From Bifidobacteriaceae bacterium (lineage in GTDB: Bacteria > Actinomycetota > Actinomycetes > Actinomycetales > WQXJ01): a DNA stretch of 32,828 bases. Shown one piece after another: positions 1-16,998 of this stretch; position 1 is the first letter of the stretch; each line of letters opens with the position of its first letter. The stretch is from assembly GCA_031278675.1 (NCBI GenBank), contig JAITJY010000236.1, positions 1 through 32,828 on the forward strand. Direction: 5' to 3'. The notes below the pieces were generated by a model, which worked only from the letters and a program-made list of their open reading frames with translations, was not told where the DNA came from and did not search any database. The position numbers were made by a program, and so were the translations under genes.

Positions 1-52
1 AGCTCAATGCCGAGGTCACGGACGTAGGTAGCCCAGTCGTCGCTCCTCGCAT
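1..52 (-). CDS. 5' end (17 codons) of a leftward gene that runs out of the window; product unknown
   Basis: ATG at 52-50 on the minus strand, preceded by GAAAGGTG (SD-like) a few nt upstream. The frame stays open to the window edge. Too short to assign. Confidence 0.25.
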   Translation of the reverse strand, partial: MRGATTGLPTSVTSALS

Positions 53-71
53 CTGGCACCTTTCAAGGCTG

Positions 72-111
72 CGCCTGACCGGTCTTGCATCACGCCTGAC
101 CGGTCTGGCAT
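72..111. promoter_or_regulatory. Tandem operator-like direct repeat, two copies of CGCCTGACCGGTCT(T/G)GCAT 21 bp apart, each with the palindrome GACCGGTC
   Basis: Copies at 72-90 and 93-111 differ at one base. The 21-bp register equals two helical turns. It lies 20-60 bp upstream of the leftward ATG at 52. Confidence 0.35.
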
Positions 112-299
112 AGTTGGACGGTAGTCACATCCCCCGGCTTGTCGCGAGCCCTCGACCCAGGAGGCCAGCGTGGTGTCCGCTTTCACGTCACCCCGAGCGC
201 TGTTCAGCGCTGGCGGTCAGGGTTGCGTTCCAGCAGGCCCGAATGAGCTTGCGTCGTCCGACATCATTCCCAGCCGTCCGCATGGTAAACGTAAAGTGC

Positions 300-328
300 T
301 TGCAAAGCGCGGGCAATCTTGCGATAAT
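300..328 (+). promoter_or_regulatory. Sigma70-like promoter, TTGCAA - 17 nt - GATAAT
   Basis: -35 TTGCAA at 300-305, 17-nt spacer at 306-322, -10 GATAAT at 323-328. The predicted TSS at about 334-336 coincides with the 5' arm of the long helix described below. Confidence 0.45.
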
Positions 329-334
329 GGAGAT

Positions 335-460
335 TGTCTAGATCGTCGGTACAAGTACCCGCTCTTGGCGCAATACCTGGTAACAGGCAGCCGCCACAGT
401 AGGTGTTGCAAAGCGCTTACCGATGATCTAGACAGTCAGGTGGCTGTCTGTTTTTGTTTT
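335..460 (+). ncRNA. Candidate structured leader / riboswitch-like attenuator (or ~125-nt sRNA) upstream of tRNA-His and hisS-like
   Basis: A 15-bp helix pairs 335-349 (TGTCTAGATCGTCGG) with 420-434 (CCGATGATCTAGACA): 14 Watson-Crick pairs plus one G-U. It encloses about 70 nt that include a CCUG-GUAA-CAGG GNRA hairpin (376-387) and a 5-bp helix 367-371/413-417. The 3' arm overlaps the 5' arm of the terminator hairpin at 429-450. Confidence 0.4.
429..460 (+). terminator. Rho-independent terminator
   Basis: Stem TAGACAGTC / GGCTGTCTG (429-437 with 442-450, 7 Watson-Crick pairs plus 2 G-U) and loop AGGT, followed by TTTTTGTTTT (451-460). Confidence 0.6.
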
Positions 461-501
461 CTCCACTTGGATCGATTCTTTCAACGGGTCCGCGTGGCGT
501 G

Positions 502-576
502 GGCCGGGGTAGCTCAATGGTAGAGCATCCGACTGTGGATCGGAGAGCGCGGGTTCGATTCCCGTCCCTGGCACCA
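502..576 (+). tRNA. tRNA-His (anticodon GTG), atypical: A73 discriminator, genomic G at -1, encoded CCA
   Basis: Hand-folded cloverleaf. Acceptor GCCGGGG (503-509) pairs with CCCTGGC (566-572). D arm is GCTC/GAGC. Anticodon stem is TCCGA/TCGGA with loop CTGTGGA (anticodon 535-537 GTG). T arm is GCGGG-TTCGATT-CCCGT. Position 573 is A, then CCA at 574-576. G502 sits at -1 opposite A73. Confidence 0.88.
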
Positions 577-608
577 ACTAAGGAGGAACGCTGTGATAAG
601 GATACGAT

Positions 609-2090
609 ATGACAACTAAACTGGCCTCACCTACGCCGCTCAGAGGGTTTCAAGATCTTCTGCCTGCCGATATGTCGCTCAGAAATGAAGTCACGCGGAG
701 AATCGCCGGTGTTTACCAGGCTTACGGGTACCTCCCTCTAGACACTCCAATAGCAGAGCGCCTCACCACATTAAAGGGAGCGGGCGGCGACGAAACCGAC
801 GCGCTAATCTTCACCCTACAAACCCCGGAAGGACAAAAGATTGGTCTGAGATTCGATCTGACTGTTCCTTTCGCTAGGATAGTGGCGAACTACCACCCTC
901 ATAGAATCAAGCTGCCCTTCCGCCGGTACCACGTCGGACCTGTATTCAGAGCTGATGCACCTCAACCCGAGCAAGGACGATACCGTCAATTCACGCAATT
1001 CGATATCGATGTAGCCGGCAGTGAGGATGTCTCGGCCGACGCAGAGATCGTTGCTGTGATGTGCGACGCCATGGCATCGCTGACACTGTCTCCTTCGAGC
1101 GATCCCGAGGAACCAGGCTACTTCATCCGGATCAACAGCAGAAAGCTCGTTGACGCTGCATTGGCCGGGCTCGGACTCACAGAGCGCCACGTTGTTCATC
1201 ACGTACTGCGAGTCCTGGATAAGCTCGATAAGCTTCCTGAAGACGAGGTTCTCAAAGAGCTTCAAACTGGCCGGGTCGACTCGTCTGGAGCATTCGTGGA
1301 TGGTCTCGGGTTAGAGGAGGGAACTGCCACCGCCCTTCTTCGGTTTGTCAAAATTCGGGGTTGGGGACGAAGAGATACCCTAGCCCAACTAGAAGCGAAT
1401 CTCCCAAATACTAGCGCTTCGGCAGAGGCGGTAAACGAGATGAGCCTCCTACTGGACCACCTAGATGCGCTTGGGGTTGAGGAGCATGCTGTACTGCTTG
1501 ACGCAAGCCTTGCCAGGGGTCTTGAGTACTACACGGGTATCGTTTACGAAGGCACTCTTAGCGGCTCGGGTGTAGGGTCAGTCATCGGCGGCGGTCGGTA
1601 CGACGGACTAGTCAGCCGATTTAGTAACGAACGAATCCCCGCCGTCGGCGCATCGATTGGACTGGACAGGCTGGTGGCCGGGCTTAGAACGCTAAATATC
1701 CCAATCGTCGAATCCGGCCAGGCAGCAGTGACGCTAGTCCTAGCCACGGATCCCGCGCTTCAGATTGAGGCGAGCCGCGTTGCCGGTGAGCTGCGTCGAA
1801 GCGGAATTCCGACGGAACTCTATACCGGGGAAGCCATTGGAAAACTGGCCAAAGCGTTGCGCTATGCGAACTCGCGGGGCTTCTCCGTCACTGTCGTTGT
1901 TGGACCGGACGAACTCGCAGGGGGGTACGTTTCCGTAAAAGATCTCAGCCGTGGCAAAGAAGAGAGGGCGCAGATATCGGCGCGCGAGACGTATCGAGCG
2001 GCGGGAAGGGTTGGTCAGCACCAAGTCAACCGTGAGGACATGCCTCGCGCTGTAATGAACATAATTAAAGGGGTGCCAAGTGACGAATAA
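609..2090 (+). CDS. hisS: Histidyl-tRNA synthetase, full length with anticodon-binding domain; eukaryote/archaea-like sequence signatures
   Basis: Class II HisRS motifs: LRFDLTVPFARIVA; motif 2 RRYHVGPVFRADAPQPEQGRYRQFTQFDIDVAG; LARGLEYYTGIVYEG; motif 3 GGGRYDGLVSRF...PAVGASIGLDRL. C-terminal anticodon-binding-like region is VTLVLA...RYANSRGFSVTVVVGPDELAGGYVSVKDL. The VLDKLDKLPEDEV segment resembles the DKLDK..EEV segment of eukaryotic HisRS. Weak SD AAGGA at 598-602. Confidence 0.9.
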   Translation: MTTKLASPTPLRGFQDLLPADMSLRNEVTRRIAGVYQAYGYLPLDTPIAERLTTLKGAGGDETDALIFTLQTPEGQKIGLRFDLTVPFARIVANYHPHRIKLPFRRYHVGPVFRADAPQPEQGRYRQFTQFDIDVAGSEDVSADAEIVAVMCDAMASLTLSPSSDPEEPGYFIRINSRKLVDAALAGLGLTERHVVHHVLRVLDKLDKLPEDEVLKELQTGRVDSSGAFVDGLGLEEGTATALLRFVKIRGWGRRDTLAQLEANLPNTSASAEAVNEMSLLLDHLDALGVEEHAVLLDASLARGLEYYTGIVYEGTLSGSGVGSVIGGGRYDGLVSRFSNERIPAVGASIGLDRLVAGLRTLNIPIVESGQAAVTLVLATDPALQIEASRVAGELRRSGIPTELYTGEAIGKLAKALRYANSRGFSVTVVVGPDELAGGYVSVKDLSRGKEERAQISARETYRAAGRVGQHQVNREDMPRAVMNIIKGVPSDE

Positions 2091-2922
2091 AGTGGAACGC
2101 CACCCAACTACGTTGCTCATTTCTGCGGCGGGCGGCAATGCCACTGCTATCGCGGCAATTGACAGCCCTCTTTCGCGGACTGAATACGCGGCACGGGGAA
2201 GCCGTTTGCTCTCAAGTTTGCAAGGCGACGGAGCCGAGCAGGCGGGGTTCTTCCTGCCGAGTTCCGCTCACTTAGAAATGGCTGGTGCGGAATTCTGCGG
2301 CAACGCTACGCGGGCTGCCTTCGTAGCCCGTGAGATTCTCGGCGGAGACCGACGGGAGCGCATCACGGTTTCGGGTTACGAAGGCTCCGTCCTTGGGGCC
2401 GCACAACCTTCTTCTTGCGACCAGTGCGGCTCAACGTGCCAGTGCGGGCGCCATTTCATTGCGTGGTGCGCGTTTGAGCGCATGCAAATTCGCACGCAGG
2501 ACTGCGTATGGAGCCGAGGGCGCGGTACTCTTGTCGACCTTGGTGGAATCGTCCACTTCGTGACGTGGGACCTTTGGCCGACCGAAAGCTCCGAGGTTAG
2601 AGCTTACCATGAGGCCTTCAGGGACGAGATGGATCTCCAGAATCGAGACGCCGTCGGGCTAGTGCGGCTTCGAGAGATTCGAACGGCACTCGGCGCTCCC
2701 GCAGATGGCTTGCTCGGCATTTTTCCCATAGTTTGGGTGCGAGCAATTGACAGCTTCTTCTTTGAGACCTCGTGTGGCTCAGGCTCAATTGCCGCTGCAG
2801 TCGTCGCTGGCAGCGGACCAGTTGTCCAGCCGTCGAACGGCGTGATTGACGTCCGAGTCGAAGGACCATTCGTCCGGCTGGAGAGCGAGATGGAGGTATT
2901 GATGTGCACTTCGAACGGCTAA
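2080..2922 (+). CDS. DapF-fold (PLP-independent, two-cysteine) amino-acid epimerase/racemase-like protein with a Cys-rich insert
   Basis: N-terminal GGNAT (compare DapF GNDF). EMAGAEFCGNATRA (Cys73) resembles the DapF xMCGNGxRC motif. GGIVHFV resembles GNPHxV. ETSCGSGSIAAA (Cys232) resembles DapF ETLACGTGA. GTG start with AAAGGGG SD. Overlaps the hisS stop by 11 nt. Confidence 0.7.
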   Translation: MTNKVERHPTTLLISAAGGNATAIAAIDSPLSRTEYAARGSRLLSSLQGDGAEQAGFFLPSSAHLEMAGAEFCGNATRAAFVAREILGGDRRERITVSGYEGSVLGAAQPSSCDQCGSTCQCGRHFIAWCAFERMQIRTQDCVWSRGRGTLVDLGGIVHFVTWDLWPTESSEVRAYHEAFRDEMDLQNRDAVGLVRLREIRTALGAPADGLLGIFPIVWVRAIDSFFFETSCGSGSIAAAVVAGSGPVVQPSNGVIDVRVEGPFVRLESEMEVLMCTSNG

Positions 2923-3536
2923 TTGCTTCAAGCACTAGTGCCTCCGACATCCAAGACTTCGTCGCCGCCTACCGGGATGCTTTTGGCGGCGCACCCTACT
3001 TTGAGACGTATAGCGACGAATACATTCGGGATGAGGTACTGATCCCGCATCTCGAGAATGGACTAGTAGTGGTCGCCCGGGACAATGGCCACGTAGTTGG
3101 ATTTGGCTGTACGGTACCGGTCTATTCGTCGCCCCCTGATGTCATGGAATATATCAAAAAGCTTTCAACAGAGCCAGGCCTCCCATCCGATCTGGCACTC
3201 GAGCGGACATGGTACATGTCGGAACTGGGCACGGTAACCACTTATCGCCTGCGGGGCGTAGCGTATCAGGTGGTGCGTAGCAGGCTGATTTCAGTTTCTC
3301 ATATGGGCGGGCTGTTCTACTTCATGCGAACGGCAAAGGAAGGCTCCAATTCGCGGCACCTTTACGCGCGAATCGGCGCGCTGCCAATTGGTCAGCCTCA
3401 GAACGTTGGCGGTCTGAGAGTAACGAAAGATTCCTCCTCAAGAAGCTTAGAGCGCCAGTACATGTACGGTCGCGTAAGTGATGGGCTAGAGGCTGTACTG
3501 GGCAGGATTCGCGAAAGCGCAGACACGTCGTGCTGA
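2904..3536 (+). CDS. GNAT-family acyl-CoA N-acyltransferase
   Basis: YMSELGTVTTYRLRGVAYQVV contains the R-x-x-G-x-A pyrophosphate-binding loop of GNAT motif A, and the beta-strand pattern VVVARDNGHVVGFG lies upstream. GTG start 7 nt after GGAGG. Overlaps the upstream gene by 19 nt. Confidence 0.7.
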   Translation: MHFERLIASSTSASDIQDFVAAYRDAFGGAPYFETYSDEYIRDEVLIPHLENGLVVVARDNGHVVGFGCTVPVYSSPPDVMEYIKKLSTEPGLPSDLALERTWYMSELGTVTTYRLRGVAYQVVRSRLISVSHMGGLFYFMRTAKEGSNSRHLYARIGALPIGQPQNVGGLRVTKDSSSRSLERQYMYGRVSDGLEAVLGRIRESADTSC

Positions 3537-3596
3537 GACTGCGCGTGGCCGACGGCGCATTGGTCAGGAATTTCAAAGAATTATAGGGAATATAAT

Positions 3597-4124
3597 ATGA
3601 AGCAATATCAAATTGCCGTTATCGGTTCAGCCGGTTCAGAGGAGTATCCTTACGACAAGCCGCTGGCAGCTATGTTTGAAGCTGCTGAAAAAATCGGCCA
3701 ACTACTGGCTGTTAACAAGCTAATCGTGGTTTGTGGTGGCAAGGGCGGCGTGATGGAAGCCGTCAGTCGGGGTGCTAAATCAGCTGGAGGTATAACCGTA
3801 GCCGAAATTGCCGGCTTAAGCCGATGGGCTGCAAACGACTACATTGATGTCGAAATTGTGACTGGCGACCTGGCGTTTCGTGGGCCATCGCAACTTATCG
3901 CTATGTCAGATGCCGTTATTGCGTTAGGCGGCGGTAGCGGAACTTTACAGGAAATTTGTGTGGCGTATCGCCTCCAGAAACCAATAATTTTGCTAAGAGG
4001 TTTTGGCGGTTGGGTCGATAAACTATCACCAGTGAGTTTCTTGGACGAAAGGCGGCTAGTAAAATTTTACCAAGCGACAACGCCTGAAAATGCAGTCCAA
4101 AAAGCATTAAGTATGTTGAAATAG
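3597..4124 (+). CDS. LOG/SLOG-superfamily Rossmann protein (TIGR00725-like; possible nucleotide phosphoribohydrolase or nucleotide sensor)
   Basis: CGGKGGVMEAVSRGA (GGxxGxM motif) and LGGGSGTLQE (PGGxGTxxE-type motif) are the LOG-family signatures. Size is 175 aa. AGGGA SD lies 7 nt upstream. Confidence 0.75.
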   Translation: MKQYQIAVIGSAGSEEYPYDKPLAAMFEAAEKIGQLLAVNKLIVVCGGKGGVMEAVSRGAKSAGGITVAEIAGLSRWAANDYIDVEIVTGDLAFRGPSQLIAMSDAVIALGGGSGTLQEICVAYRLQKPIILLRGFGGWVDKLSPVSFLDERRLVKFYQATTPENAVQKALSMLK

Positions 4125-4194
4125 GAATCAATATGAATCTAAGTTTATCACGCATCGAAACAACAGCTTCAATCGTCAACGTTCTAATCGTCGA

Positions 4195-4794
4195 CTGTCG
4201 ATTGAGGTAGAGGCTGCCAGCTTAGATAAATCAGCCGGTAGTATGACTCTGGTTGACGACTTGGCAGTTTCTGGCCGGACTATCGAGGTCGCCAGGAGAA
4301 CACTAACAACTTCTGGCCAAACCATCGGCACTGTTGGACTGGGTTTACTCTTTAATAGCAACAGATGTCAAAGGCTAATCGGCGTAGACGACACGCGTCC
4401 GGTGGTAGTTTATTCACGCGAGGGCGGAAGTTATCCACCTATCAACCCTATCGACACGCTTGCTGGTAATGCCGGGATTTTAGAAGGCCTAACCGAACGG
4501 TATTTTCAACCAACCCAGCCAATTTTCGAGGCGGTCCCCCTAGAGAAGGTTGTCGCCTTTGATTCGAACATCGACTTCATCGTAGCGGGCAGACTGATTG
4601 TAGAACACCGCCCATTCCCGATCGCCAAAGGAAAAATGCCACCACTCCCCGTAAAAAGGAGCAAATCCCTCGTCGACCAACAAGTCATGCAGAAGTATGC
4701 GGTTCGCCCGCGCTCCTTTCGACACTTGGGTGGAAAATGTTGGAATCTTGACGGGATTCGAGAAATCCGATATCCGAGTCCCCATTTGAAGTGA
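4195..4794 (+). pseudogene. Type I phosphoribosyltransferase-like ORF lacking the N-terminal half; probable remnant, boundaries uncertain
   Basis: The PRPP-binding motif MTLVDDLAVSGRTIEVA sits at the first ATG (4243). PRTase-like sequence (LSIEVEAASLDKSAGS) continues upstream in the same frame with no canonical start back to the stop at 4117-4119. The 3' 255 nt are antisense to the VanX-like gene. Confidence 0.35.
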
Positions 4795-5244
4795 CTGTCC
4801 GGCTTGAGAGACTAATGTCAAGTCGACCGCAGCACCAGCTGGATGTCCAGCAACTGAGGGTACAGCGGTGAAGGCGTGAGTAATGCGAATGAGCGCGGAT
4901 TCAGTGATGTACGGGTGAGCCTTGCGGAGCATTCGAAGTCTTTGATCGTAGTATTGGCGCTGGATATCCGGATGTCTGTAGCCATAGACTATGCAGAGTC
5001 TCAGGCCTCTTGCTTTAGCAGCTTGATTCACGAGAGAGAGCTTCTGCGCAACCGTTTCCCGGACAAGTATCGCGTTCCCGGTATAAGGCGTCATGTCCGT
5101 CTGGGTGTGCCGCGCTATGATGGTCGAGTCGAAGGTGCGGACGTCGAGGAGTGACTCGGCGCTTTGACCAGCGGGAACCGTAGCCAAATCGTCATACTCC
5201 AACACTCTCCGCGTAGTGAAGAATTCACTTGACAATCGCGCCAT
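4540..5244 (-). CDS. VanX/DdpX-like D-Ala-D-Ala dipeptidase (peptidase M15D)
   Basis: VAGHPAGAAVDLTL resembles the VanX S-x-H-x-x-G-x-A-x-D zinc/substrate motif. FYGEWWHFSF resembles the VanX EWWH motif about 30 aa from the C-terminus. AGGAGG SD lies 8 nt upstream of the ATG. Confidence 0.8.
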   Translation of the reverse strand: MARLSSEFFTTRRVLEYDDLATVPAGQSAESLLDVRTFDSTIIARHTQTDMTPYTGNAILVRETVAQKLSLVNQAAKARGLRLCIVYGYRHPDIQRQYYDQRLRMLRKAHPYITESALIRITHAFTAVPSVAGHPAGAAVDLTLVSQAGQSLQMGTRISDFSNPVKIPTFSTQVSKGARANRILLHDLLVDEGFAPFYGEWWHFSFGDREWAVFYNQSARYDEVDVRIKGDNLL

Positions 5245-5634
5245 GCAGCCAATTACCTCCTGTTAGTTCAATATTGCGACCAAGGAACGGAGGACTCCGC
5301 GGTACCATCCTTGTTCCGCAACGCATTCCTGCGCTGCGGCACTCTGTGCCAATCTATCAACAATTGATTTCGGCTGCTGCATTTACGGTTCGGCTTCCGG
5401 CGCGTATTTGGCGCGCAGCTCACCCTAGCGTGAATAGGGCTCAAACGCTTTGCTGCTATTGTGGCATACTTGTCTGCTCTCGTCAAGCGGCCGACAAGAC
5501 TCAACTTTACGTTGCTCGCACCATAGTCACCTAATGTGATCGCGAAACGGCGTGCTTGCCTCACTTGGGGGTGGTCGCGAAACGCCGCGGTCGCTGGCGC
5601 TTGGCGGGCTTCGCCGGGTGTTCGCTGGCTGGAC

Positions 5635-5826
5635 ATGGCGAAGGGCCTGGACATGGTGACGAAGCGTGGGTTGACGAAGGCCTACGCGGCTGACTACGGA
5701 CGTGCGTCGAAGACGGATAAGGGGCGGATGCTCGAGGAGTTGACGGCGGCTGCGGGCTGGTCGCGGGTGAACGCGCGTCGCGCGAGCAGGCGGGCGTCTG
5801 AGCGGCGCGGGCGGCGTCGGTGGTGA
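5635..5826 (+). mobile_element. N-terminal fragment (~63 aa) of a transposase (HTH region only); IS remnant
   Basis: MVTKRGLTKAYAADYGRASKTDKGRMLEELTAAAGWSRVNARRA resembles the N-terminal HTH segment of actinobacterial DDE transposases, from memory. The ORF stops long before any catalytic domain. Confidence 0.4.
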
Positions 5827-5867
5827 GCCACTTAGCCTGAGATAGGCGCTCGTAGGAGCCAAGAGAT

Positions 5868-5955
5868 TGAGGGGGCGTCCATGCTTGACGCTCCGCTGAA
5901 TCTTGCGCTCAATCATTCGGTGCTTACCAAACTGTCGATACGCGGAGACTATGGG
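5868..5955 (-). mobile_element. Possible C-terminal fragment of an IS5-family transposase
   Basis: The minus-strand frame reads YRQFGKHRMIERKIQRSVKHGR, which resembles the IS5-family Y(K/R)xRxxIERxFxxLKxxR C-terminal motif. There is no intact ORF context. Confidence 0.25.
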
Positions 5956-6030
5956 CATATGCGCAGGACGCGGTGCCACCATCGTGCAAGTAGGGGAGTA
6001 GAAGACTACGCGCTCATAGGGGTCTCAGAG

Positions 6031-6666
6031 TCACAGCGCCGCATATCCCGTCGTCCTCCCACTACCAACTCGGTGAATCAACCCATCCCCCACCAGCCGG
6101 TCAACGTCCATCTTGACCGTGCTGTAGTTGATGCCAGTTGCCTGAGAAATCTCCAACCTGCTGGCCCGCCCCTGCTGGCGAATGACGGCAAGCACGCCAG
6201 CTTGCCGCTGGGCGCGAGCATCGACACTGAGTTGTTTGGCCGACGCTTGGTGCTCGGCGTACTCGTCCGGCATAGCGCGGCGTAGCAGGTTGGAGATGGC
6301 TGCGCGGCTGACCCCATACCGCTGGGCGATGCTGGCTTGCGAGTCGCCCTGTCTGAATAGGCGCTCAATCTCGCGTAGCTGGTCATCGTCCAGCTTGCAC
6401 AGTGACTGCGGCCTGATCGTCACACCAGCCTTGCGAAGATGGGAGGCAACAGTGTCAGGCGATGAGCCGATAACCTCGGCCACTGCCGTTAGCGACTGGC
6501 CGCCCTCGTACATGGCGGCGGCCCGAGCGACGTCATCGTCGGTCCAGACCTTGGCCAACGGTCGCCACGTTCGCTCCGATGGTCCTGGGTCAGGCCGTTG
6601 ATCTGCGGCTTTGCTGATTTTCTGAAATAGGCGGAGTACGTGAGCCTGGTTTGAGTAGGCTCGCAC
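6031..6666 (-). CDS. Multi-HTH DNA-binding protein (three predicted HTH/winged-helix modules)
   Basis: Three HTH-like segments: GQSLTAVAEVIGSSPDTVASHLRKAG, GDSQASIAQRYGVSRAAISNLLRRA and SRLEISQATGINYSTVKMDVDRLVGDGLI. Confidence 0.6.
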   Translation of the reverse strand: MRAYSNQAHVLRLFQKISKAADQRPDPGPSERTWRPLAKVWTDDDVARAAAMYEGGQSLTAVAEVIGSSPDTVASHLRKAGVTIRPQSLCKLDDDQLREIERLFRQGDSQASIAQRYGVSRAAISNLLRRAMPDEYAEHQASAKQLSVDARAQRQAGVLAVIRQQGRASRLEISQATGINYSTVKMDVDRLVGDGLIHRVGSGRTTGYAAL

Positions 6667-6806
6667 TAGGCCCGCCAGATGCGTCCATGCGCCGGCGATG
6701 ATCTGTCTGGACGCGGGTTGCGAGCGCCTGTGGACGGGCGATGCCCGGTTGGCCAGCGCCGCCCGGGGTTTCGCAATTGACGTATTCGCGGATCGGCGGA
6801 CCCGGG

Positions 6807-8363
6807 CTAAGACCCACCCGCCGGGACACTGCCCGGCAACAGGACGCGGGCGATCCGGTTGCGCACGCCATCCGGGATGCGGCGCCAGGCCCGCTTCGCC
6901 AACGGCGGACGCGATCTGACCGGTTTGGCGAGGCTTAAGAACAGGGCCGACCAGCGCTCGGCGAGACGTTCCTCGGAGAACTCCGTCATGCGGGCCGCCG
7001 CGTTGGCTGACATGGCGCGCTTCGCCGAGGCAGGCGAGTCGAGATACTCGATAATCCGGCGTGCCAACTCGGCCTGATTGCCGGGCTCAACCAGGTGGCC
7101 GTTGACCCCGTCTAGGATCATCGCCGCCGGACCGTATTTTGTGTCATAAGCGATGCACGGCGTCCCGGCCGCCATCGACTCCATGATGGTCAGCGAAAAC
7201 CCCTCCCAGCGTGAGGTCAACAAAGAGCATTCGGCGGTCCCGAAGACCGCCCTCGCACTGTTGGTGTAACCAGCGAAGTTGACCGCCTCAGCGAGGTTCA
7301 AAGACCCGGCGAACGCCTTCAAATCGCTCTCCAAGGGGCCGTGGCCCCAGACCTCGAGCTGCGCGTCGGGACGCGCCTGGCGCACAGCGCCCAATGCGGC
7401 GATCGCCGAGGCCACATTCTTTTCTTCGCTCAGCCGCGCCACCATCACCAGTTTCCCCGGGACGGTGTCCGGCGCCGGCGGCGCCGGCGTAATGGCATGC
7501 GGTATTACATGAAGACGATCCTCAAATCCGAACCGGTCCACCACGTCAGCCTTTTGTTGCGGCGTCAGCACCACCAACGCGTCAACCCCGGGCAGATTGT
7601 TCAACACCGCCCGGTTCCCGGTCCGGATAACCGACGATCCGGGCCGCTCATGAATCGAATGGAACACAAAAATCTTCCGGGCCAACCGGTTCTCCAGTGA
7701 CAGCAACACCCCGTCAAGCGCCCGCGCCTCACACACCAGATACGTCAATTCGCCCGCGCTCAGCTCGGCCATAAAATGCCGCCTGAAGCCGTCCAGCGTC
7801 CGAAAGGCCCGCGCCGCGCCGGTCAGCGGCGCCAACACCACCTCCGCCTTCGGATACGGTCCACCCGGCGGCGCCGCTCCCACCGGGCGGTACTGGAAGA
7901 CCGACCCATCCGGCCTGCACCACAAGCGCCCCACCGCCCGGCCAGCCACCGTGATGGTCGCCGCATAGGGCGCACCGCTTGGATCATGGACCTCCCGGAC
8001 CTCATAAGTTGGCAGGTCACGGCACAGTTCGGTGATCGCCTCGGCCACCTTGGGCGCACCTGGCGCCGCCGCCGCGCCCCGGTAATAGTGGTTGATGTTG
8101 ACCAGGCCAACCCCACACGGCAGGTCATAGCGTTCACGCACCGCAGCCGCGACTTCACCGAAGCCTGCGGCGTCGTGAAAGGTCGCGATCACCGGATAGA
8201 TTCCCCGCAAGCGAGCCAGCACCCCCGCCTTGCGCAGCAGTGAGGCGGTCAAGCCGCCGTGTTCGGCGTCCAAGCGGCTCGTCAAAAAGACATAACGCAA
8301 CGCGATCCCCCGCAATCTCGTAGCAAAGTGGTAGCCAGTGGGCTGTCCAGCCCATGCTAACAA
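6807..8363 (-). CDS. GT4-family glycosyltransferase (TagE-like size)
   Basis: C-terminal GT-B signature ...LLTSRWEGFSLTIMESMAAGTPCIAYDTKYGPAAMILDGVNGHLVE (E-x7-E motif). Confidence 0.85.
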   Translation of the reverse strand: MLAWAGQPTGYHFATRLRGIALRYVFLTSRLDAEHGGLTASLLRKAGVLARLRGIYPVIATFHDAAGFGEVAAAVRERYDLPCGVGLVNINHYYRGAAAAPGAPKVAEAITELCRDLPTYEVREVHDPSGAPYAATITVAGRAVGRLWCRPDGSVFQYRPVGAAPPGGPYPKAEVVLAPLTGAARAFRTLDGFRRHFMAELSAGELTYLVCEARALDGVLLSLENRLARKIFVFHSIHERPGSSVIRTGNRAVLNNLPGVDALVVLTPQQKADVVDRFGFEDRLHVIPHAITPAPPAPDTVPGKLVMVARLSEEKNVASAIAALGAVRQARPDAQLEVWGHGPLESDLKAFAGSLNLAEAVNFAGYTNSARAVFGTAECSLLTSRWEGFSLTIMESMAAGTPCIAYDTKYGPAAMILDGVNGHLVEPGNQAELARRIIEYLDSPASAKRAMSANAAARMTEFSEERLAERWSALFLSLAKPVRSRPPLAKRAWRRIPDGVRNRIARVLLPGSVPAGGS

Positions 8364-8377
8364 TCCCGCCCGAATGG

Positions 8378-8935
8378 TTAGTCATCCGTTGCACGATGCC
8401 GCGTGGCCAGCACCGCCGCCACCACCAGCGCATCGCCCGGCAAGTCCACCACCCCACCCTGCGGCTCGCTACGGCGATCATCGGTGGATCCGGGCTTCGC
8501 CCACACGCGCTCCACCCAGCCCCCCCGCACCAGGCAGTCGACCGCCTCAGCTACCACCCATTGCCCGATCACGCCCGCCCCCACGGTCCCGCCCGCCCAG
8601 ATTGCCCGGCGCACCGGGTGAGCCCCGCCTACCAGCGTCAGGTCCCGTTCGGCGAGGAAGCGGACGAGCGGGACGAGGCGGCATCGTCCTTGGGCGAAAA
8701 CCCAACGGCCCTCGACGTCAACCTCCACCACCTGGTCGAGCCGGCGCCGGTCCAACTGCGCCAAGACCGCCCGGATCGAGGGGACCCCGGGAGACGGATC
8801 GTCCGGGCCGGAGCGATATTCCGCCCGGCCCGCCCCGTAAAGCGAAGTCACCAACTGGCCGACAGCCGCCGTGTGGTAAAGGTGGCCAACCAAGCGCGCC
8901 GCCTCCCGGTGCCCCGCCCGCCCGAACAAGCTCAC
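8378..8935 (-). CDS. Hypothetical protein
   Basis: This is the most protein-like composition among several overlapping high-GC ORFs. GTG start with AAGGTGG SD. The 3' end runs into a partial MITE copy. No motif recognised. Confidence 0.45.
   Translation of the reverse strand: MSLFGRAGHREAARLVGHLYHTAAVGQLVTSLYGAGRAEYRSGPDDPSPGVPSIRAVLAQLDRRRLDQVVEVDVEGRWVFAQGRCRLVPLVRFLAERDLTLVGGAHPVRRAIWAGGTVGAGVIGQWVVAEAVDCLVRGGWVERVWAKPGSTDDRRSEPQGGVVDLPGDALVVAAVLATRHRATDD
8415..8497. repeat. Partial copy (one terminus plus about 80 bp) of the 159-bp MITE-like element
   Basis: ...CTGCGGCTCGCTACGGCGATCATCGGTGGATCCGGGCT aligns with the reverse complement of the copy A left end, ...GCCGCTGGCTACGGCCATCATCGGTGGATCCAGGCT. 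Confidence 0.5.
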
Positions 8936-8974
8936 CTGGCCACCTTACGTGATGCGATGCGCCACAATGGCTAA

Positions 8975-9688
8975 GTGCGAGTGATTCTGGCCGTGATGGC
9001 ACATCCTGATGACGTTGACTTCTGGGCTGCGGGCACGGTGGCCACCTGGGTCGCGGGCGGCGCCCGGGTGACATATTTGCTGGTCACCGGCGGTGACGCC
9101 GGGGGGTTCGAGGCCGGTGCCGAACGCGGGGAGATGGGCCGGCGGCGCCGGGATGAACAGCGCCGCGCCGCTGGTGTTCTCGGGGTGGGAGATGTCCGGT
9201 TCCTCGACGGCTTCGCCGATGGCGCCGTCGCCGTGACCGACGAGTTGGTCGGCGGTATTGTCCACGCTATCCGCGAACTGCGTCCCGACCTCGTCTTGGC
9301 CCAAAGCCCCACCCGGACCTGGCACGACATCCGCCTGTCTCACCCCGATCACCTCGCCGTTGGCGAGGCCACCGCCCGGGCGGTCTACCCCTTCGCCCGC
9401 AATCCTTTCGCTGACTTCGGCGCGGCCGGCTCCGACGCAGCCAGCCTTGCTGCGTTCGCGGTCCGTGAACTCTGGCTTCAGGGCGATCCCGAACCGAACC
9501 ATGTGGTAGATGTGACCGCGTTTAGGGCCCAGCGCCGCGAGGCGCTGGCTGCTCATGCCAGCCAGCATCCCGACCTCCCGGGCGCCTTGGACCGGGCCGA
9601 ACGGGAGGCTGGCGGCGTCGCCGCGCGGTGGGGCTTACCGAAGGGCTCCCTCGCCGAGGAGTTCAGACGGATTCTGATTCCTCATTAG
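8975..9688 (+). CDS. PIG-L/LmbE-family N-acetylglucosaminyl deacetylase
   Basis: N-terminal VMAHPDDVDFWAAGT (AHPDD motif) and the later SHPDH motif. Confidence 0.85.
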   Translation: MRVILAVMAHPDDVDFWAAGTVATWVAGGARVTYLLVTGGDAGGFEAGAERGEMGRRRRDEQRRAAGVLGVGDVRFLDGFADGAVAVTDELVGGIVHAIRELRPDLVLAQSPTRTWHDIRLSHPDHLAVGEATARAVYPFARNPFADFGAAGSDAASLAAFAVRELWLQGDPEPNHVVDVTAFRAQRREALAAHASQHPDLPGALDRAEREAGGVAARWGLPKGSLAEEFRRILIPH

Positions 9689-10613
9689 GCGGCGGTTCGG
9701 CTTCCTCGGTCGGCTCGGGGCTGAGTTCTTCCGAGGGTTCTTCGGTCGGCTCCTCAATCGGTGGTTCTGCGGGGTCTTCCGGCTCGCGGGTAGCCGGCGC
9801 TTCGGTGGGTTCCACCGGGGACGGCTCCGGCGTGATAGTGACCGTGACGGTCGGGGCCGGCTCGTCCGGGGCCGATGGGCTGGGAACCGGCGGCGGGGCC
9901 GGCTCCTCCCGGTTGACGAAGGTGGTAGTCCGGCCCGAATCGTCCCCCGTTACTATGTCGGACAGCGACCGGCCTGCCAGCAATTCGACCCCCGTCACCA
10001 CCGCCGAGATGACCAAGAACAGCACTATCCCCAGCGCCGCCAATGTGCGCGCCGTCCCGTGCCGTGCGATCATTTGGCTGAGCCACCCAGGCGAGTTGGC
10101 GTCCACCTCGGGCAGCTCTGCGGTATCCCCAGCCGAGTTGGGGTCCGGCTCGGGCAGCTCGGCGGTATCCCCAGGCGAGTTGGCGTCCACCTCGGGCAGC
10201 TCGGCGGTATCCCCAGCCTTAGCGGCAGCGGCCGGCTCGGCCGGTTCGGCCGGCTCGGCGGCGCTACCTGCTGCCGCAGCGGCATCGTCGGCATCGGCCG
10301 CTCCGCCGACCGGCTCCGGGGCGGGTGCCTCGCGGGCGGCACCGTCCGATCCCGCGTCTGCCTGGACCGGGCTGGCCGGCGAAACCAAGGTGGCGGCTTG
10401 GTGCGCCAAAGTCTTGACGGCTTGATGGGTGCGCCGCAGCGAACGGGAATAGACATAGTTGCCGACCACCGTGATGACCGAAGCGAGGGCCGCGCCGAGG
10501 ATGGTGCCCGTCGCGCCCAGGTAGGACAGCGCCACGGTGGCCGTCGCTGCGGCCAAAGCACTGGCAAGCACTTGGACAACCGAAATCCCCGCCGGCCGTT
10601 TGTCGCTGGGCAT
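9663..10613 (-). CDS. Pro/Glu/Ala-rich membrane protein with 14-aa tandem repeats
   Basis: Two predicted TM segments (VVQVLASALAAATATVALSYLGATGTILGAALASVITVVG and TLAALGIVLFLVISAVVTGVELL) and three GDTAELPE(V/P)D(A/P)NS(P/A) repeats. The opposite-strand Ser/Gly ORF looks like an antisense artefact. Confidence 0.6.
   Translation of the reverse strand: MPSDKRPAGISVVQVLASALAAATATVALSYLGATGTILGAALASVITVVGNYVYSRSLRRTHQAVKTLAHQAATLVSPASPVQADAGSDGAAREAPAPEPVGGAADADDAAAAAGSAAEPAEPAEPAAAAKAGDTAELPEVDANSPGDTAELPEPDPNSAGDTAELPEVDANSPGWLSQMIARHGTARTLAALGIVLFLVISAVVTGVELLAGRSLSDIVTGDDSGRTTTFVNREEPAPPPVPSPSAPDEPAPTVTVTITPEPSPVEPTEAPATREPEDPAEPPIEEPTEEPSEELSPEPTEEAEPPPNEESESV
10087..10212. repeat. 3 x 42-bp in-frame tandem repeat
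   Basis: Units at 10087-10128, 10129-10170 and 10171-10212. Units 1 and 3 differ at one base. Confidence 0.85.
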
Positions 10614-10663
10614 AGGCCCACGCTATCTCATCCGGCGCGGGAGCGCGCGGGGGCGGGCGATGG

Positions 10664-11365
10664 TTGCGGCATCATTGGATGGTGCCTGATACGCCAAGCC
10701 GCCTCGCCGCCGCCGGGACCCCGCTCAGTTGGTACGGGACTCTGGTCGGCGCGTTTGCTGCGCTGCTCGTCGTCTCCAACATCGCGGCGGTCAAGCTGAT
10801 CGGTCTAGGCCGCCTGGAACTGTTTGGGACCGGGATCGACATCACCGTCGATGGGGGCGCTCTCCTGTTCCCTTTGACGTATGTGCTCGGCGATGTGCTT
10901 GCCGAGGTGTTCGGTTTCAAGGCGGCGCGCCGCGCCATCTGGGTCGGGTTTGTCTGCGCTGCGCTGGCTGTCGGCTCGTTCTGGTTGGTGGGCGTGGCGC
11001 CACCGGCCGCCAACTGGCTGGGCCAGGGCGCCTTCACGCAAACGCTCGGGTTTGTGCCGCGGGTGGTGGCCGCCTCCCTGGCCGGCTATCTGGCCGGACA
11101 GCTTTCGAATGCTTTCACGCTGACCGCTATGAAACGGCGGGCCGATACGGCTTTGTGGCGGCGCCTGCTCGGCTCCACCCTGGTCGGCGAACTCGCCGAC
11201 ACCGCAGTGTTTTGCACCGTCGCGTTCTATGGGGTGATCACCGGGCCGCAGTTCTTCGGCTACGCCGCCCTGGGCTACATCTACAAGTGTCTCGCTGAGG
11301 TTGTCTTGTTACCCATCACCTATGGGGTGATCCGGGCGACCCGGCGCCACGAGGCGCGCCTCTAG
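10664..11365 (+). CDS. yhhQ: Queuosine-precursor transporter YhhQ (DUF165/VUT family)
   Basis: DGGALLFPLTYVLGDVLAEVFGFKAARRAIW matches the conserved YhhQ FPxTxxxxDxxxExYG core, and the protein is multi-TM. Start is either TTG 10664 or ATG 10679. Confidence 0.8.
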   Translation: MRHHWMVPDTPSRLAAAGTPLSWYGTLVGAFAALLVVSNIAAVKLIGLGRLELFGTGIDITVDGGALLFPLTYVLGDVLAEVFGFKAARRAIWVGFVCAALAVGSFWLVGVAPPAANWLGQGAFTQTLGFVPRVVAASLAGYLAGQLSNAFTLTAMKRRADTALWRRLLGSTLVGELADTAVFCTVAFYGVITGPQFFGYAALGYIYKCLAEVVLLPITYGVIRATRRHEARL

Positions 11366-12366
11366 TTGAGGACGCCCGGATCACCCGGATCGATTATCGC
11401 GATGATCCGGTTGAGGTCTGCGACCGAAGCAAACTCGATCACAACGCGGCCCTTGGTCTTGCCCAGCGCCACCACCACCTTCGTGTCGAGCTTGTCGGTC
11501 AGCCGTTCCTGGAGCGCATTCAGCGCGCCATGGCGGCCGCCGGGGCGGGCCTTGGCCCGTTTCGGCTTCGCCGGCACATCACCCAGCGTCACCGCTTCCT
11601 CCGTGCTACGCACCGAAAGTCCCTCCGCGACGATCCGCTGGGCCAGGCGTTCCATTGCCGCAGTGTCTTCCAGTCCGAGCAATGCCCGGGCGTGCCCCGC
11701 CGAGATCACGCCGGCGGCGACGCGGCGCTGGACCAACGGCGGGAGCTTCAACAGCCGCAAAGTGTTGGAGATCTGCGGCCTTGAGCGGGCTACCCGCACC
11801 GAGAGTTCTTCTTGGGTACAAGAAAAGTCGTCCATCAACTGACGGTAGGCGGCGGCTTCTTCGAGCGGGTTGAGTTGCGCGCGGTGGAGGTTTTCCAGCA
11901 GGGCGTCGCGCAGCAGTTCCGCGTCATCTGTCGCACGCACGATGGCGGGCACCTGGTCCAGCCCAGCCATCTGGCAGGCGCGCCACCGCCGCTCCCCCAT
12001 CACCAGTTCGTAGTGCCCGTCACCGCCGGCGCGCGGCGGGCGGACCACGATCGGTTGCAGCAGCCCGACTTCTTTGATCGAGTCGGCGAGTTCTTCGAGG
12101 GATGACTCATCGAACACCTCGCGCGGCTGGCGCGGATTGGGCGAGATAGCGCCGATAGGAATCAGGCTGAATTCAGCGCCGGGCACAAGGACCAACTCCG
12201 GGGCTTGGCCGGGTGCCGCCTGCCTGGTGCGCTGCACCCCTGAGGGCGCGAACAACAAGTCGACCGGCCGTCGTTCCGCTGGTTCCGCTCCGCCCTGCGC
12301 GGGGCGCCCCGGGCCTGGAATCAGCGCTCCCAGTCCTTTGCCGAGCCCTGTCCTTCGTTCAGCCAT
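11362..12366 (-). CDS. parB: Chromosome partitioning protein ParB
   Basis: GLGKGLGALIP, ISPNPRQPREVFDE, GLLQPIVVR and GERRWRA motifs. Start chosen at MAERRTGLGKG (ATG at 12366), overlapping the parA stop by 8 nt. Confidence 0.92.
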   Translation of the reverse strand: MAERRTGLGKGLGALIPGPGRPAQGGAEPAERRPVDLLFAPSGVQRTRQAAPGQAPELVLVPGAEFSLIPIGAISPNPRQPREVFDESSLEELADSIKEVGLLQPIVVRPPRAGGDGHYELVMGERRWRACQMAGLDQVPAIVRATDDAELLRDALLENLHRAQLNPLEEAAAYRQLMDDFSCTQEELSVRVARSRPQISNTLRLLKLPPLVQRRVAAGVISAGHARALLGLEDTAAMERLAQRIVAEGLSVRSTEEAVTLGDVPAKPKRAKARPGGRHGALNALQERLTDKLDTKVVVALGKTKGRVVIEFASVADLNRIIAIIDPGDPGVLN

Positions 12367-14147: not shown

Positions 14148-14151
14148 CTCA

Positions 14152-14778: not shown

Positions 14779-14790
14779 TGGCGTACTCCT

Positions 14791-16989: not shown

Positions 16990-16998
16990 ACCGGCGGA

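What the first reader, a model, noticed from the sequence alone, without database searches (positions are those of the whole stretch)
300..460. Promoter plus ~125-nt structured RNA with mutually exclusive long helix and terminator, upstream of tRNA-His/hisS
A near-consensus promoter (TTGCAA-17-GATAAT) would start transcription exactly at the 5' arm of a 15-bp helix (335-349 with 420-434). That helix closes a ~70-nt domain containing a GNRA-capped hairpin. The 3' arm shares nucleotides 429-434 with the 5' arm of a good intrinsic terminator (429-460), so the two structures cannot form together. I see no convincing separate promoter between the terminator and the tRNA (461-501). This is riboswitch or attenuator architecture placed in front of a tRNA gene and its synthetase. 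It has no recognisable T-box core, so it may be an undescribed regulatory RNA, or a stand-alone sRNA.
Basis: seen in the sequence. Interest (0 to 1): 0.65.

Follow-up and report, generated by a model that had tools for sequence, protein, structure and literature searches.

The report
Portable small RNA gene, leaky terminator
The promoter, long helix and terminator are real and make a conserved ~120-nt structured RNA of no known family, but the same unit sits in front of unrelated genes elsewhere, so it is a portable small-RNA/leader unit and not a histidine- or tRNA-His-specific switch.

Summary
TTGCAA-17-GATAAT (300-328), a 15-bp helix (335-349/420-434) and a 9-bp terminator with a T-run (429-460) are all present, and the fold is better than shuffles (z = -4.2). 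No Rfam family matches, T-box included.

The unit recurs in four sequence contexts:
- the window
- a JGI contig, L148
- two other public runs, X2 and X3

Similarity starts at the promoter and stops at the terminator T-run. In X3 the -35 hexamer survives at 17-nt spacing inside otherwise unrelated sequence. In L148 the unit is followed by an orphan small ORF, not by tRNA-His/hisS.

A covariance model of the RNA found nothing in 82 sources. These included 79 of the related hisS loci, among them the closest relatives, which all carry tRNA-His directly upstream.

Substitutions among the four copies keep a rod-shaped fold, with G.U pairs that work only on the + strand and a GUAA/GAAA loop. With four sequences this is not statistically significant.

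The helix-terminator clash covers only 6 nt of a ~22-bp rod, and the two states differ by 2.3 kcal/mol. That predicts a leaky terminator, not a ligand switch. Neither context has a -10-like hexamer between terminator and cargo, so downstream genes probably depend on read-through.

Best reading: an unclassified, rare sRNA/leader transcription unit placed next to a horizontally acquired tRNA-His-hisS cassette.

The parts
67..299 (+). Conserved non-coding region upstream of the RNA promoter, shared with L148 only (85% overall). It contains two palindromic boxes, CGCCTGACCGGTCT(T/G)GCAT at 72-90 and 93-111, which overlap a promoter-like TTGCAT(84-89)-18-CATAGT(108-113). It also contains a nearly invariant block at 165-239 with two AGCGCT palindromes (196-201, 206-211).
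   Evidence: blastn window vs L148. Pairwise alignment and substitution list; substitutions fall 10:4:9 by codon position, so not coding-like. Repeats. Function not tested.
300..328 (+). Promoter: -35 TTGCAA (300-305), 17-nt spacer with extended -10 TG (320-321), -10 GATAAT (323-328). Predicted start at T335/G336.
   Evidence: Scan. The block 288-328 is identical in L148. In X3 TTGCAA is kept at exactly 17 nt from GATAAT, while the spacer (3 of 11 matches) and the upstream flank are unrelated (loose end).
335..349 (+). P1, 5' arm (TGTCTAGATCGTCGG).
   Evidence: Pairs with 420-434. 100% of cells pair in the 4-sequence alignment. C344-G425 becomes U.G in L148, and G345.U424 is present in all copies. 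These wobble pairs are valid only in + strand RNA.
353..358 (+). P1b, 5' arm. It extends the rod past a small internal loop (350-352/419).
   Evidence: Pairs with 413-418. A-U/G.U at 353-418, U.G/C-G at 356-415, and one A.C mismatch in the window only. RNAalifold places it in the consensus.
359..369 (+). Hypervariable linker. The window-specific hairpin 352-355/364-367 in the window's MFE fold is not conserved.
   Evidence: 14 of X3's 17 listed differences fall in 350-373. The hairpin pairs in only 56% of cells.
370..409 (+). P3 (370-378 with 401-409) enclosing the invariant apex. The apex holds a GNRA hairpin, CCUG-G(U/A)AA-CAGG at 376-387 (an alternative to the inner 3 bp of P3), and a 13-nt strand CAGCCGCCACAGU at 388-400.
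   Evidence: Pair 372-407 is A-U in the window, G-C in X2 and X3, and G.U in L148. Pair 373-406 is A-U or G.U. Pair 374-405 is U.G or C-G. 100% of cells pair. The loop is GUAA or GAAA. Apart from that loop base (381), 375-406 is identical in all four copies.
413..434 (+). 3' arms of P1b (413-418) and P1 (420-434). 429-434 are shared with the terminator stem.
429..460 (+). Intrinsic terminator: stem 429-437/442-450 (9 bp, -11.3 kcal/mol), loop AGGU, tail TTTTTGTTTT.
   Evidence: Scan. Energies. The stem is identical in all four copies. The tail GTTTTTGTT is kept in X2 and X3 and degraded to GTTCTTTGTGG in L148. Similarity to the other contexts ends at 452-459.
461..502 (+). Spacer between terminator and tRNA-His. 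It has no -10-like hexamer.
   Evidence: No TA dinucleotide in 431-509. The closest relatives carry a conserved TATGCT motif about 16 nt before their tRNA-His, and the window lacks it.
503..576 (+). tRNA-His (GTG), discriminator A73, encoded CCA. This is cargo and not part of the conserved RNA unit.
   Evidence: ARAGORN and Rfam. The tRNA-His-hisS pair is conserved in relatives that lack the RNA.
609..2090 (+). hisS (HisRS, 493 aa). Cargo, probably co-transcribed with the tRNA by read-through.
   Evidence: Pfam. Relatives.

Best explanation
Positions 300-460 are a self-contained transcription unit. A sigma-70/sigmaA-type promoter starts an RNA at about 335-336. The RNA folds into a long rod: P1, P1b and P3, about 30 bp in all, capped by an invariant ~33-nt apex. 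It ends at an intrinsic terminator, giving a product of about 120 nt. The unit is portable, because it occurs with the same boundaries next to unrelated sequences.

In this window it lies at the left edge of a low-GC, horizontally acquired stretch of an actinobacterial-type oriC-region contig. The next genes are a tRNA-His-hisS cassette that has no promoter of its own. The base of P1 (335-340) competes with the 5' arm of the terminator (429-434). The anti-terminated form is 2.3 kcal/mol more stable, so termination should be partial and not ligand-dependent. Some transcripts would stop and yield the small RNA. The rest would read through and express whatever lies downstream: tRNA-His/hisS here, an orphan ORF in L148.

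Shown: the sequence features, the conservation pattern, structure-compatible substitutions, and independence from tRNA-His/hisS. Inferred: the transcription start, partial termination, read-through expression of the cargo, and any trans-acting role of the invariant apex.
For: 1. Features present, and the fold beats shuffles.
2. Multi-context conservation.
   - In run X1 the unitig 312-452 has depth 26.7. It branches into the hisS context (9.2) and a second context (13.5).
   - That second context is L148, where window 67-457 matches at 85% and 374-452 is identical. After 452 comes an RBS and an orphan ORF.
   - X3 matches 317-458 and X2 matches 345-459, both with unrelated flanks.
3. The promoter is conserved as a promoter. 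X3 keeps TTGCAA at 17-nt spacing inside diverged sequence. L148 keeps 288-328 identical.
4. The 3' limit of similarity is the terminator T-run in all copies.
5. Substitutions fit an RNA on the + strand. 97% of helix cells pair, with one double-sided and six one-sided compatible changes. The G.U pairs would be A.C on the other strand. The loop stays GNRA.
6. Not coding: substitutions come as adjacent doublets and are not biased towards the third codon position.
7. Not tied to tRNA-His/hisS. blastn found no hit in the 147 related loci. The covariance model found none in the 82 sources (680 kb) it was run on. The tRNA-His-hisS pair is conserved without the RNA.
8. No -10-like hexamer between terminator and cargo in either resolvable context.
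Against: - There is no transcript evidence of any kind. No RNA run holding the sequence could be confirmed.
- Only four copies exist, about 90% alike. Covariation is not significant: 231 of 500 shuffles do as well.
- X2 and X3 were reconstructed from difference tables. 3 of X3's 20 differences were not listed.
- Both P1 arms and the terminator are invariant, so they carry no covariation. They could equally be conserved as DNA.
- In both resolvable contexts the next gene lies on the same strand, 40-50 nt away, without a promoter. A dedicated cis-regulatory leader would look the same.
- The unit is rare: three public runs and one JGI contig.
Confidence: 0.55

Rival explanations
1. A generic cis-acting leader, such as an attenuator, a riboswitch or a processive antiterminator. 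The invariant apex would bind a ligand, protein or RNA polymerase, and this would tip the P1-base/terminator competition and control whatever cargo follows.
For: - The P1 3' arm overlaps the terminator 5' arm, and the two states are nearly isoenergetic.
- Both resolvable contexts have a same-strand gene close behind and no -10-like hexamer in between.
- The apex 374-406 is invariant apart from the GNRA loop base 381, while the neighbouring linker is hypervariable, as in an aptamer with a variable peripheral element.
Against: - P1 plus P1b is about 22 bp, and the rod alone is -47 kcal/mol. It forms without any ligand.
- The downstream genes share no function: tRNA-His/hisS in one context, an orphan membrane-like ORF in the other.
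- The terminator sequence is as invariant as the supposed aptamer, whereas riboswitch expression platforms usually drift.
- No Rfam riboswitch, put or EAR match. The SAM-I hit on L148 scores 17 bits against a gathering score of 44, E = 1.1, and is absent in the window.
Confidence: 0.25
2. A histidine- or tRNA-His-sensing leader, T-box-like, dedicated to tRNA-His/hisS.
For: - Its position is directly upstream of tRNA-His and hisS, with no intervening promoter.
- The conserved strand contains CAC followed by A (395-398), and 9 of 10 nt are complementary to the tRNA-His anticodon arm (pair I11).
Against: - No T-box match even at E <= 10.
- The terminator loop offers UGGC, while the tRNA ends in ACCA.
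- The apex-tRNA duplex energy is no better than shuffles, fraction 0.33.
- The same invariant apex occurs in L148, which has no tRNA-His.
- None of the related tRNA-His-hisS loci searched has it.
Confidence: 0.03
3. A DNA-level element and not an RNA: a MITE or transposon end, an attachment or recombination site, a single-strand origin or oriT hairpin, or a pair of protein operators.
For: - The 20-nt inverted repeat has invariant arms that contain rare CTAG palindromes.
- It lies at the edge of a low-GC stretch.
- Contexts change immediately after 452.
- The L148 contig has repeated ends.
Against: - Conservation runs well beyond the inverted repeat on both sides, 317-458 in X3, and matches promoter-to-terminator limits.
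- No target-site duplication flanks 332-437.
- No second copy, and no copy of the alternative flank, in the window.
- The internal helix P3 shows A-U/G-C/G.U exchanges that make sense only for a folded + strand.
- The -35 hexamer is kept at fixed spacing in X3.
- No match in the plasmid, phage or viral collections.
Confidence: 0.08
4. A chance juxtaposition of a promoter-like site, an inverted repeat and a terminator-like hairpin, with no function.
For: Counts of promoter-like and terminator-like sites in the region are no higher than in shuffles. Inverted repeats of similar length occur about once per 4 kb.
Against: - Near-identical copies occur in four contexts whose flanks are unrelated or only 85% alike.
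- z = -4.2 for the fold.
- The substitutions are compatible with the structure.
Confidence: 0.03

Closest known systems
Independently transcribed bacterial small RNA genes with an intrinsic terminator (for example actinobacterial 6C RNA, or plasmid and phage antisense RNAs built as a long hairpin plus terminator)
   Same: - Own promoter.
- A product of about 120 nt.
- A long 5' hairpin with a conserved apical region, followed by a Rho-independent terminator.
- Conservation limited to promoter through T-run, with unrelated flanks.
   Different: - No sequence or covariance-model match to 6C or to any other Rfam family.
- No complementary target identified.
- The terminator is partly sequestered by the 5' end.
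- Same-strand genes without a promoter follow closely.
ON-type transcriptional riboswitches in which the P1 3' strand overlaps the terminator 5' strand (pbuE/ydhL adenine riboswitch type)
   Same: The topology: the 3' arm of the closing helix shares 6 nt with the 5' arm of the terminator, so a full P1 disfavours the terminator.
   Different: - P1 here is 15 bp plus a 6-bp extension and is stable on its own.
- Only its outer third competes with the terminator.
- No purine or other aptamer match.
- The genes downstream are unrelated between copies.
T-box riboswitch (RF00230), the known tRNA-sensing leader of aminoacyl-tRNA synthetase genes, including hisS in Firmicutes
   Same: Located upstream of an aaRS gene, with a terminator and a competing helix. 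A His codon (CAC-A) lies in a conserved unpaired strand.
   Different: - No T-box sequence, no Stem I features and no covariance-model hit.
- About 120 nt including the terminator, so much shorter than a T-box leader.
- UGGC does not match the tRNA's ACCA end.
- The element also occurs where no tRNA-His or aaRS follows.
5' leaders / external transcribed spacers of tRNA operons
   Same: If read-through occurs, RNase P cleavage at tRNA-His position +1 would release the structured leader as a separate RNA.
   Different: - The leader here has its own terminator.
- It is conserved independently of the tRNA.
- The related tRNA-His-hisS cassettes have short leaders behind a different conserved promoter-like motif.

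Membership tests
T-box riboswitch (RF00230) | Match to the family covariance model (Stem I, specifier loop, T-box sequence, antiterminator) | tested here: not met
   No hit at the gathering score. No hit at E <= 10 in 150-700 or in 1-480.
T-box riboswitch (RF00230) | Antiterminator bulge UGGN complementary to the NCCA end of the cognate tRNA | tested here: not met
   The only UGG lies in the terminator (UGGC, 441-444). The tRNA-His here ends in A73-CCA.
T-box riboswitch (RF00230) | Specifier codon that pairs with the anticodon of the regulated tRNA | tested here: inconclusive
   CAC-A lies at 395-398 in an unpaired conserved strand (I11). However, the duplex energy against tRNA-His is no better than shuffles, and the strand is equally conserved in L148, which has no tRNA-His.
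T-box riboswitch (RF00230) | Consistent association with aaRS or amino-acid genes across homologues | tested here: not met
   L148 has an orphan ORF downstream. None of the related tRNA-His-hisS loci searched carries the RNA.
Ligand-dependent ON riboswitch (P1/terminator competition) | P1 3' strand shared with the terminator 5' strand | tested here: met
   429-434 are shared.
Ligand-dependent ON riboswitch (P1/terminator competition) | P1 only marginally stable, so that ligand binding decides the outcome | tested here: not met
   The rod alone (335-434) is -47.0 kcal/mol, and P1 pairs 338-350 have probability 0.95 or higher without any ligand. Only 5-6 outer pairs compete.
Ligand-dependent ON riboswitch (P1/terminator competition) | Ligand binding by the conserved core | not testable with these tools
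   This needs in-line probing or ITC. No known aptamer family matches.
Stand-alone bacterial sRNA gene | Own promoter, conserved as such | tested here: met
   TTGCAA-17-GATAAT is present in the window and L148. X3 keeps both hexamers at the same spacing with a diverged spacer.
Stand-alone bacterial sRNA gene | Intrinsic terminator at the 3' limit of conservation | tested here: met
   The stem is identical in four copies. Similarity ends at 452-459.
Stand-alone bacterial sRNA gene | Conserved in different genomic contexts, independent of its neighbours | tested here: met
   Four contexts with unrelated 3' flanks and, for X3, an unrelated 5' flank.
Stand-alone bacterial sRNA gene | A discrete transcript of the predicted size | not testable with these tools
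   No RNA run that certainly holds the sequence was found.
MITE / insertion-sequence end | Terminal inverted repeats at the outer limits of the conserved unit, flanked by a target-site duplication | tested here: not met
   Conservation runs 15-20 nt beyond both arms. The flanks GGA|GATTG and CAGTC|AGGT share no direct repeat. No other copy in the window.

The most novel reading that the evidence does not exclude
The unit could be a new class of portable 'promoter + rod RNA + half-sequestered terminator' cassette. Its invariant ~33-nt apex would bind a cellular factor, or RNA polymerase itself, to set read-through. Horizontally acquired cargo would then be placed under a common, regulated expression signal. 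Here the cargo is a tRNA-His(A73)/HisRS pair that may be orthogonal to the host's. On this reading the RNA is both an sRNA and a mobile antitermination leader.
Probability: 0.15. Interest if true: 0.6.

Novelty: new member of a known kind. Interest (0 to 1): 0.35.

Why it matters
If it is transcribed, this is an undescribed structured small RNA from an uncultured termite-gut actinobacterium-like genome. It has an unusual built-in competition between its own 5' end and its terminator, and it apparently provides the only promoter for a horizontally acquired tRNA-His/HisRS cassette.

That would be a tidy example of how alien genes are wired into expression by landing behind an existing RNA gene. 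It would also give a natural model of a tunable, leaky terminator.

The element is rare (four copies in very large public collections), and nothing links it to a specific pathway. Its general importance is therefore modest unless more divergent relatives are found.

Tried and rejected
- Rfam at gathering and at E <= 10, on the window and on L148: only tRNAs. The SAM-I hit on L148 (17 bits, E = 1.1) was rejected as chance.
- blastn of window 1-700 against PLSDB plasmids and INPHARED phages: only tRNA matches.
- HisRS-guided retrieval of 66 genome loci and 80 metagenome loci. The best is 53-60% amino-acid identity, and none holds the element by blastn or by the covariance model.
- Viral contig scans with three core patterns: two found nothing. 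The third found three identical copies of an unrelated sequence that shares only a 20-mer.
- Search for a second copy of the arms, of the terminator, or of X1's alternative 3' flank in the window, as a test for a simple island insertion with att repeats: none found.
- Six-frame translation of 296-470 used as a protein query: one useful hit, P0121/L148.
- The same approach extended through L148's small ORF: the ORF is an orphan, so no further contexts.
- Coding reading of ORF 170-523: rejected. Substitutions are not codon-patterned, and changes come as adjacent doublets in 350-373.
- Window-specific three-way-junction fold with hairpin 352-355/364-367: not conserved, 56% of cells paired.
- Alternative helix 370-374/390-394 seen in the single-sequence folds of L148 and X3: impossible in the window.
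- Apex complementarity to tRNA-His, to the hisS leader and to the L148 ORF leader: at chance level.
- Taxon naming through 90% protein clusters: no named relatives.
- PHROGs on the proteins of the low-GC stretch: no phage signature.

Full report

Yes. The window reads TTGCAA (300-305), a 17-nt spacer containing TG, and GATAAT (323-328). This is followed by TGTCTAGATCGTCGG (335-349), which pairs with CCGATGATCTAGACA (420-434) as 15 bp with one G.U. CCUG-GUAA-CAGG lies at 376-387. A 9-bp hairpin at 429-450 is followed by TTTTTGTTTT.

RNAfold of 335-460 gives -50.7 kcal/mol against -35.4 +/- 3.6 for dinucleotide shuffles (z = -4.2). In scans of 1-20000 the promoter is one of three hits, and the terminator is the only site with a 9-bp stem and a 9-of-10 T tail.

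Each feature alone is not beyond chance. The window holds nine comparable inverted repeats, and the promoter and terminator counts equal those of shuffles. The case therefore rests on the co-location of the features and on conservation.

**2. How exclusive are helix and terminator?**

Only 429-434 are shared. Forcing the full terminator costs the outer five pairs of P1 and gives -48.4 kcal/mol, against -50.7 for the full helix. In the ensemble the terminator pairs have probability 0.01-0.11, while P1 pairs 338-350 stay at 0.95 or higher. L148 behaves the same way, at -52.9 versus -50.6. This is a partial, nearly isoenergetic competition at the base of a very stable rod. It is not an either/or switch.

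**3. Genomic setting**

The window is a whole 32.8-kb contig. It carries parB, parA, rsmG, jag, yidC, dnaA, dnaN, recF, gyrB, gyrA, DUF3566 and tRNA-Ile. From general knowledge this is the actinobacterial oriC gene order.

GC is about 65% in that core but 49-59% in positions 1-6000. The low-GC stretch holds:
- the element
- tRNA-His(GTG)
- hisS
- a CntK_N-type (histidine-racemase-like) gene
- a GNAT gene
- a SLOG/LOG-like gene
- a VanX-like M15 peptidase

. It has the same read depth as the core in the source metagenome, about 9x. Protein clusters at 90% identity contain no named relatives.

**4. Is the RNA tied to tRNA-His/hisS?**

No. The HisRS has no close relatives. The best are 53-60% identical, first in Actinobacteria and then in Hydrogenedentota and other phyla. 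The closest relatives all carry tRNA-His directly upstream, as do about half of the more distant loci checked, so tRNA-His-hisS is an old two-gene cassette.

None of these loci contains the element. blastn against all 147 loci found nothing. A covariance model built from the four copies (R1) found only the window and L148 among 82 sources totalling 680 kb.

The closest cassettes have their own conserved motif (TTGAACGTGTATGCTA, with a TANNNT-type TATGCT) about 16 nt before the tRNA. A second group (L002, L072-L074) has different hairpins there. The window has neither, and it has no TA dinucleotide at all in 431-509.

**5. The element occurs elsewhere, in other contexts**

Laying public contigs on the window showed the following in the termite-gut run X1. 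A 141-nt unitig covering 312-452 has depth 26.7. It branches on the right into the hisS contig (depth 9.2) and into a contig that continues CTTTGTGGAGTCAGACG... (depth 13.5). A further branch keeps 288-338 and then diverges. Runs X2 and X3 hold 345-459 and 317-458 with unrelated flanks.

A six-frame translation of 296-470, used as a protein query, recovered one JGI contig, L148. L148 308-699 equals window 67-457 at 85%, with 374-452 identical. After position 452 it continues with the X1 alternative flank, an RBS and a 102-codon ORF that has no homologues. Upstream, L148 has tRNA-Ser(CGA) and a terminator, and its two ends repeat each other.

**6. Limits of conservation match a transcription unit**

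In X3 the sequence before 317 is unrelated to the window, except that TTGCAA stands exactly 17 nt before GATAAT. The spacer matches at only 3 of 11 positions. L148 keeps 288-328 identical.

At the 3' end, X2 and X3 keep GTTTTTGTT and then diverge, and L148 diverges at 453. A MITE-type reading is not supported. Conservation exceeds the inverted repeat on both sides, there is no target duplication, and there is no second copy in the window.

**7. Structure supported by the variants**

In the four-sequence alignment (A1) the consensus is a rod followed by the terminator.
- P1: 335-349/420-434.
- A 3-nt internal loop.
- P1b: 353-358/413-418.
- A hypervariable 5' linker, 359-369.
- P3: 370-378/401-409.

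The exchanges in the helices are all compatible with pairing.
- Pair 372-407 is A-U, G-C or G.U.
- Pair 373-406 is A-U or G.U.
- Pair 374-405 is U.G or C-G.
- Pair 344-425 is C-G or U.G.
- Pair 353-418 is A-U or G.U.
- Pair 356-415 is U.G or C-G.
- The tetraloop is GUAA or GAAA.

Overall 97% of cells pair, against 27-45% when the partner columns are slid. The G.U pairs make sense only for + strand RNA.

With four sequences about 90% alike, the shuffle control is not significant (231 of 500). P1, the apex (375-406 apart from loop base 381) and the terminator are invariant and therefore uninformative. The window's own MFE hairpin 352-355/364-367 is not conserved (56% of cells paired). Whether the apex forms the GNRA hairpin or the inner pairs of P3 cannot be decided.

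X2 and X3 were rebuilt from difference tables, and three of X3's twenty differences were not listed.

**8. Not coding, not a known RNA**

Differences in 350-373 come as adjacent doublets. Substitutions in 170-334 fall 10:4:9 over codon positions. No Rfam family reaches even E = 1 on the window. On L148 a SAM-I match of 17 bits, against a gathering score of 44, is noise. There is no match in plasmid, phage or viral collections. The three viral hits share only a 20-mer.

**9. Mechanism proposed**

The unit is an autonomous small-RNA gene. Its terminator is weakened by pairing between the RNA's first six nucleotides and the terminator's 5' arm. The result should be a mixture of a ~120-nt rod-shaped RNA and read-through transcripts.

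Both resolvable contexts lack a -10-like hexamer between the terminator and the next same-strand gene. The cargo, tRNA-His/hisS here, is therefore most simply expressed by that read-through. RNase P cleavage at the tRNA 5' end would then also free the structured leader.

The invariant apex (CAGCCGCCACAGU and its neighbours) is the likely functional surface, whether for a trans target or for a protein. No target was found. Its 9-of-10 complementarity to the tRNA-His anticodon arm is no better than shuffles, and the apex is equally conserved where there is no tRNA-His.

Transcription, partial termination and any trans function are inferences. None is shown.

**10. Rivals**

- A generic cis-acting leader (ligand-, protein- or polymerase-binding) remains possible, at about 0.25. 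The topology and the promoter-less cargo fit it. The great stability of the rod, the unrelated cargo and the invariant terminator count against it.
- A His- or tRNA-His-specific sensor is essentially excluded.
- DNA-level elements and chance are unlikely.

**11. Comparison with known systems and novelty**

It works most like an ordinary Rho-independent sRNA gene. It has the topology of an ON-type riboswitch but not the marginal P1 stability. It fails every tested T-box criterion. It belongs to no curated family.

It is therefore a new, rare member of a known kind: a small structured RNA or leader. Interest is moderate to low unless wider searches show a larger family or a regulated read-through.

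Noticed in passing
window 503-576 and 609-2090; loci L002, L068-L076, L137: The tRNA-His has discriminator A73 with an encoded CCA, not the usual bacterial C73. The close relatives have G1.U72 plus A73 and no conserved encoded G-1. The HisRS is of a type shared with Hydrogenedentota, Planctomycetota and others, and is nearly always preceded by tRNA-His. This resembles the divergent, orthogonal HisRS/tRNAHis pair described for Caulobacter (PMC3064791, abstract). It suggests a co-transferred synthetase-tRNA pair inside an actinobacterial genome.
   Followed up: partly
window 2080-5244: Downstream of hisS lie a CntK_N-type (histidine-racemase-like) gene at 2080-2922, a GNAT at 2904-3536, a SLOG/LOG-like gene at 3597-4124 and a VanX-like M15 D-Ala-D-Ala dipeptidase at 4540-5244 on the minus strand. 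All are low in GC. M15 homologues also sit next to tRNA-His-hisS in L069 and L070, whereas the racemase, GNAT and SLOG genes do not. This may be a histidine / D-amino-acid tailoring or resistance cluster.
   Followed up: partly
window 72-111: Two 19-nt direct repeats, CGCCTGACCGGTCT(T/G)GCAT, each an imperfect palindrome around GACCGGTC. They overlap a promoter-like TTGCAT-18-CATAGT. The first box is conserved in L148 and the second is degraded there. They look like operator sites on a second, upstream promoter.
   Followed up: no
window 165-239: A nearly invariant non-coding block, with 2 substitutions in 75 nt against L148. It contains two AGCGCT palindromes 10 bp apart and a 13-bp imperfect hairpin (190-217). 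It is preceded by an AGGAGG-GTG that opens a non-conserved ORF (170-523). Purpose unknown.
   Followed up: partly
L148 1-1165: The contig's first 82 nt (an AT-rich stretch plus the 5' part of tRNA-Ser(CGA)) recur at its end with one mismatch. The order tRNA-Ser, terminator, conserved module, orphan ORF is therefore either tandemly repeated or flanked by two tRNA-Ser copies. GC swings from 39% to 71% along 1.1 kb.
   Followed up: partly
window 288-338 (run X1): A 520-nt contig in X1 shares the promoter region 288-338 (5 differences) and then continues with unrelated sequence, CAAGTCAACAGTTCGAGCGCC... So the promoter also occurs fused to a different body.
   Followed up: no
window 5260-5756 and about 8437: Read depth in X1 rises to 35-48x at 5200-6000 and to 77x at 8400-8800, against about 9x elsewhere, with loose ends at 5527 and 8437. 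These are multi-copy or widely shared segments. The first lies at the right edge of the low-GC stretch. It contains an ORF fragment (from about 5637, MVTKRGLTKAYAADYGRASKTDKGRMLEELTAAAGWSRVNARRA) that looks to me like a transposase N-terminus. That assignment was not tested.
   Followed up: no
window 579-619: The strong Shine-Dalgarno AAGGAGG (579-585) serves a GTG at 593 that opens an 8-codon mini-ORF (VIRIRYDN, stop 617-619). The mini-ORF overlaps the hisS ATG at 609, which itself has only a weak AAGGA. This may be translational coupling or an upstream ORF.
   Followed up: no
L002 5750-5860; L072-L074, equivalent positions: In the Micromonosporaceae-type loci the roughly 110 nt before tRNA-His hold two conserved hairpins (AGCCAGCC...GGCTGGCT, and CGCGCC...CGATG-ATCG-CATCG-GCGCG), with tRNA-Leu(TAG) further upstream. 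This is a different structured leader for the same cassette.
   Followed up: no
window 300-310 and 406-416: An exact 11-nt direct repeat, TTGCAAAGCGC, occurs once as the -35 region and once in the 3' strand of P3/J. It is kept in L148 but changed to TCGCAAGGCGC in X2 and X3, so it is probably lineage-specific or chance.
   Followed up: partly
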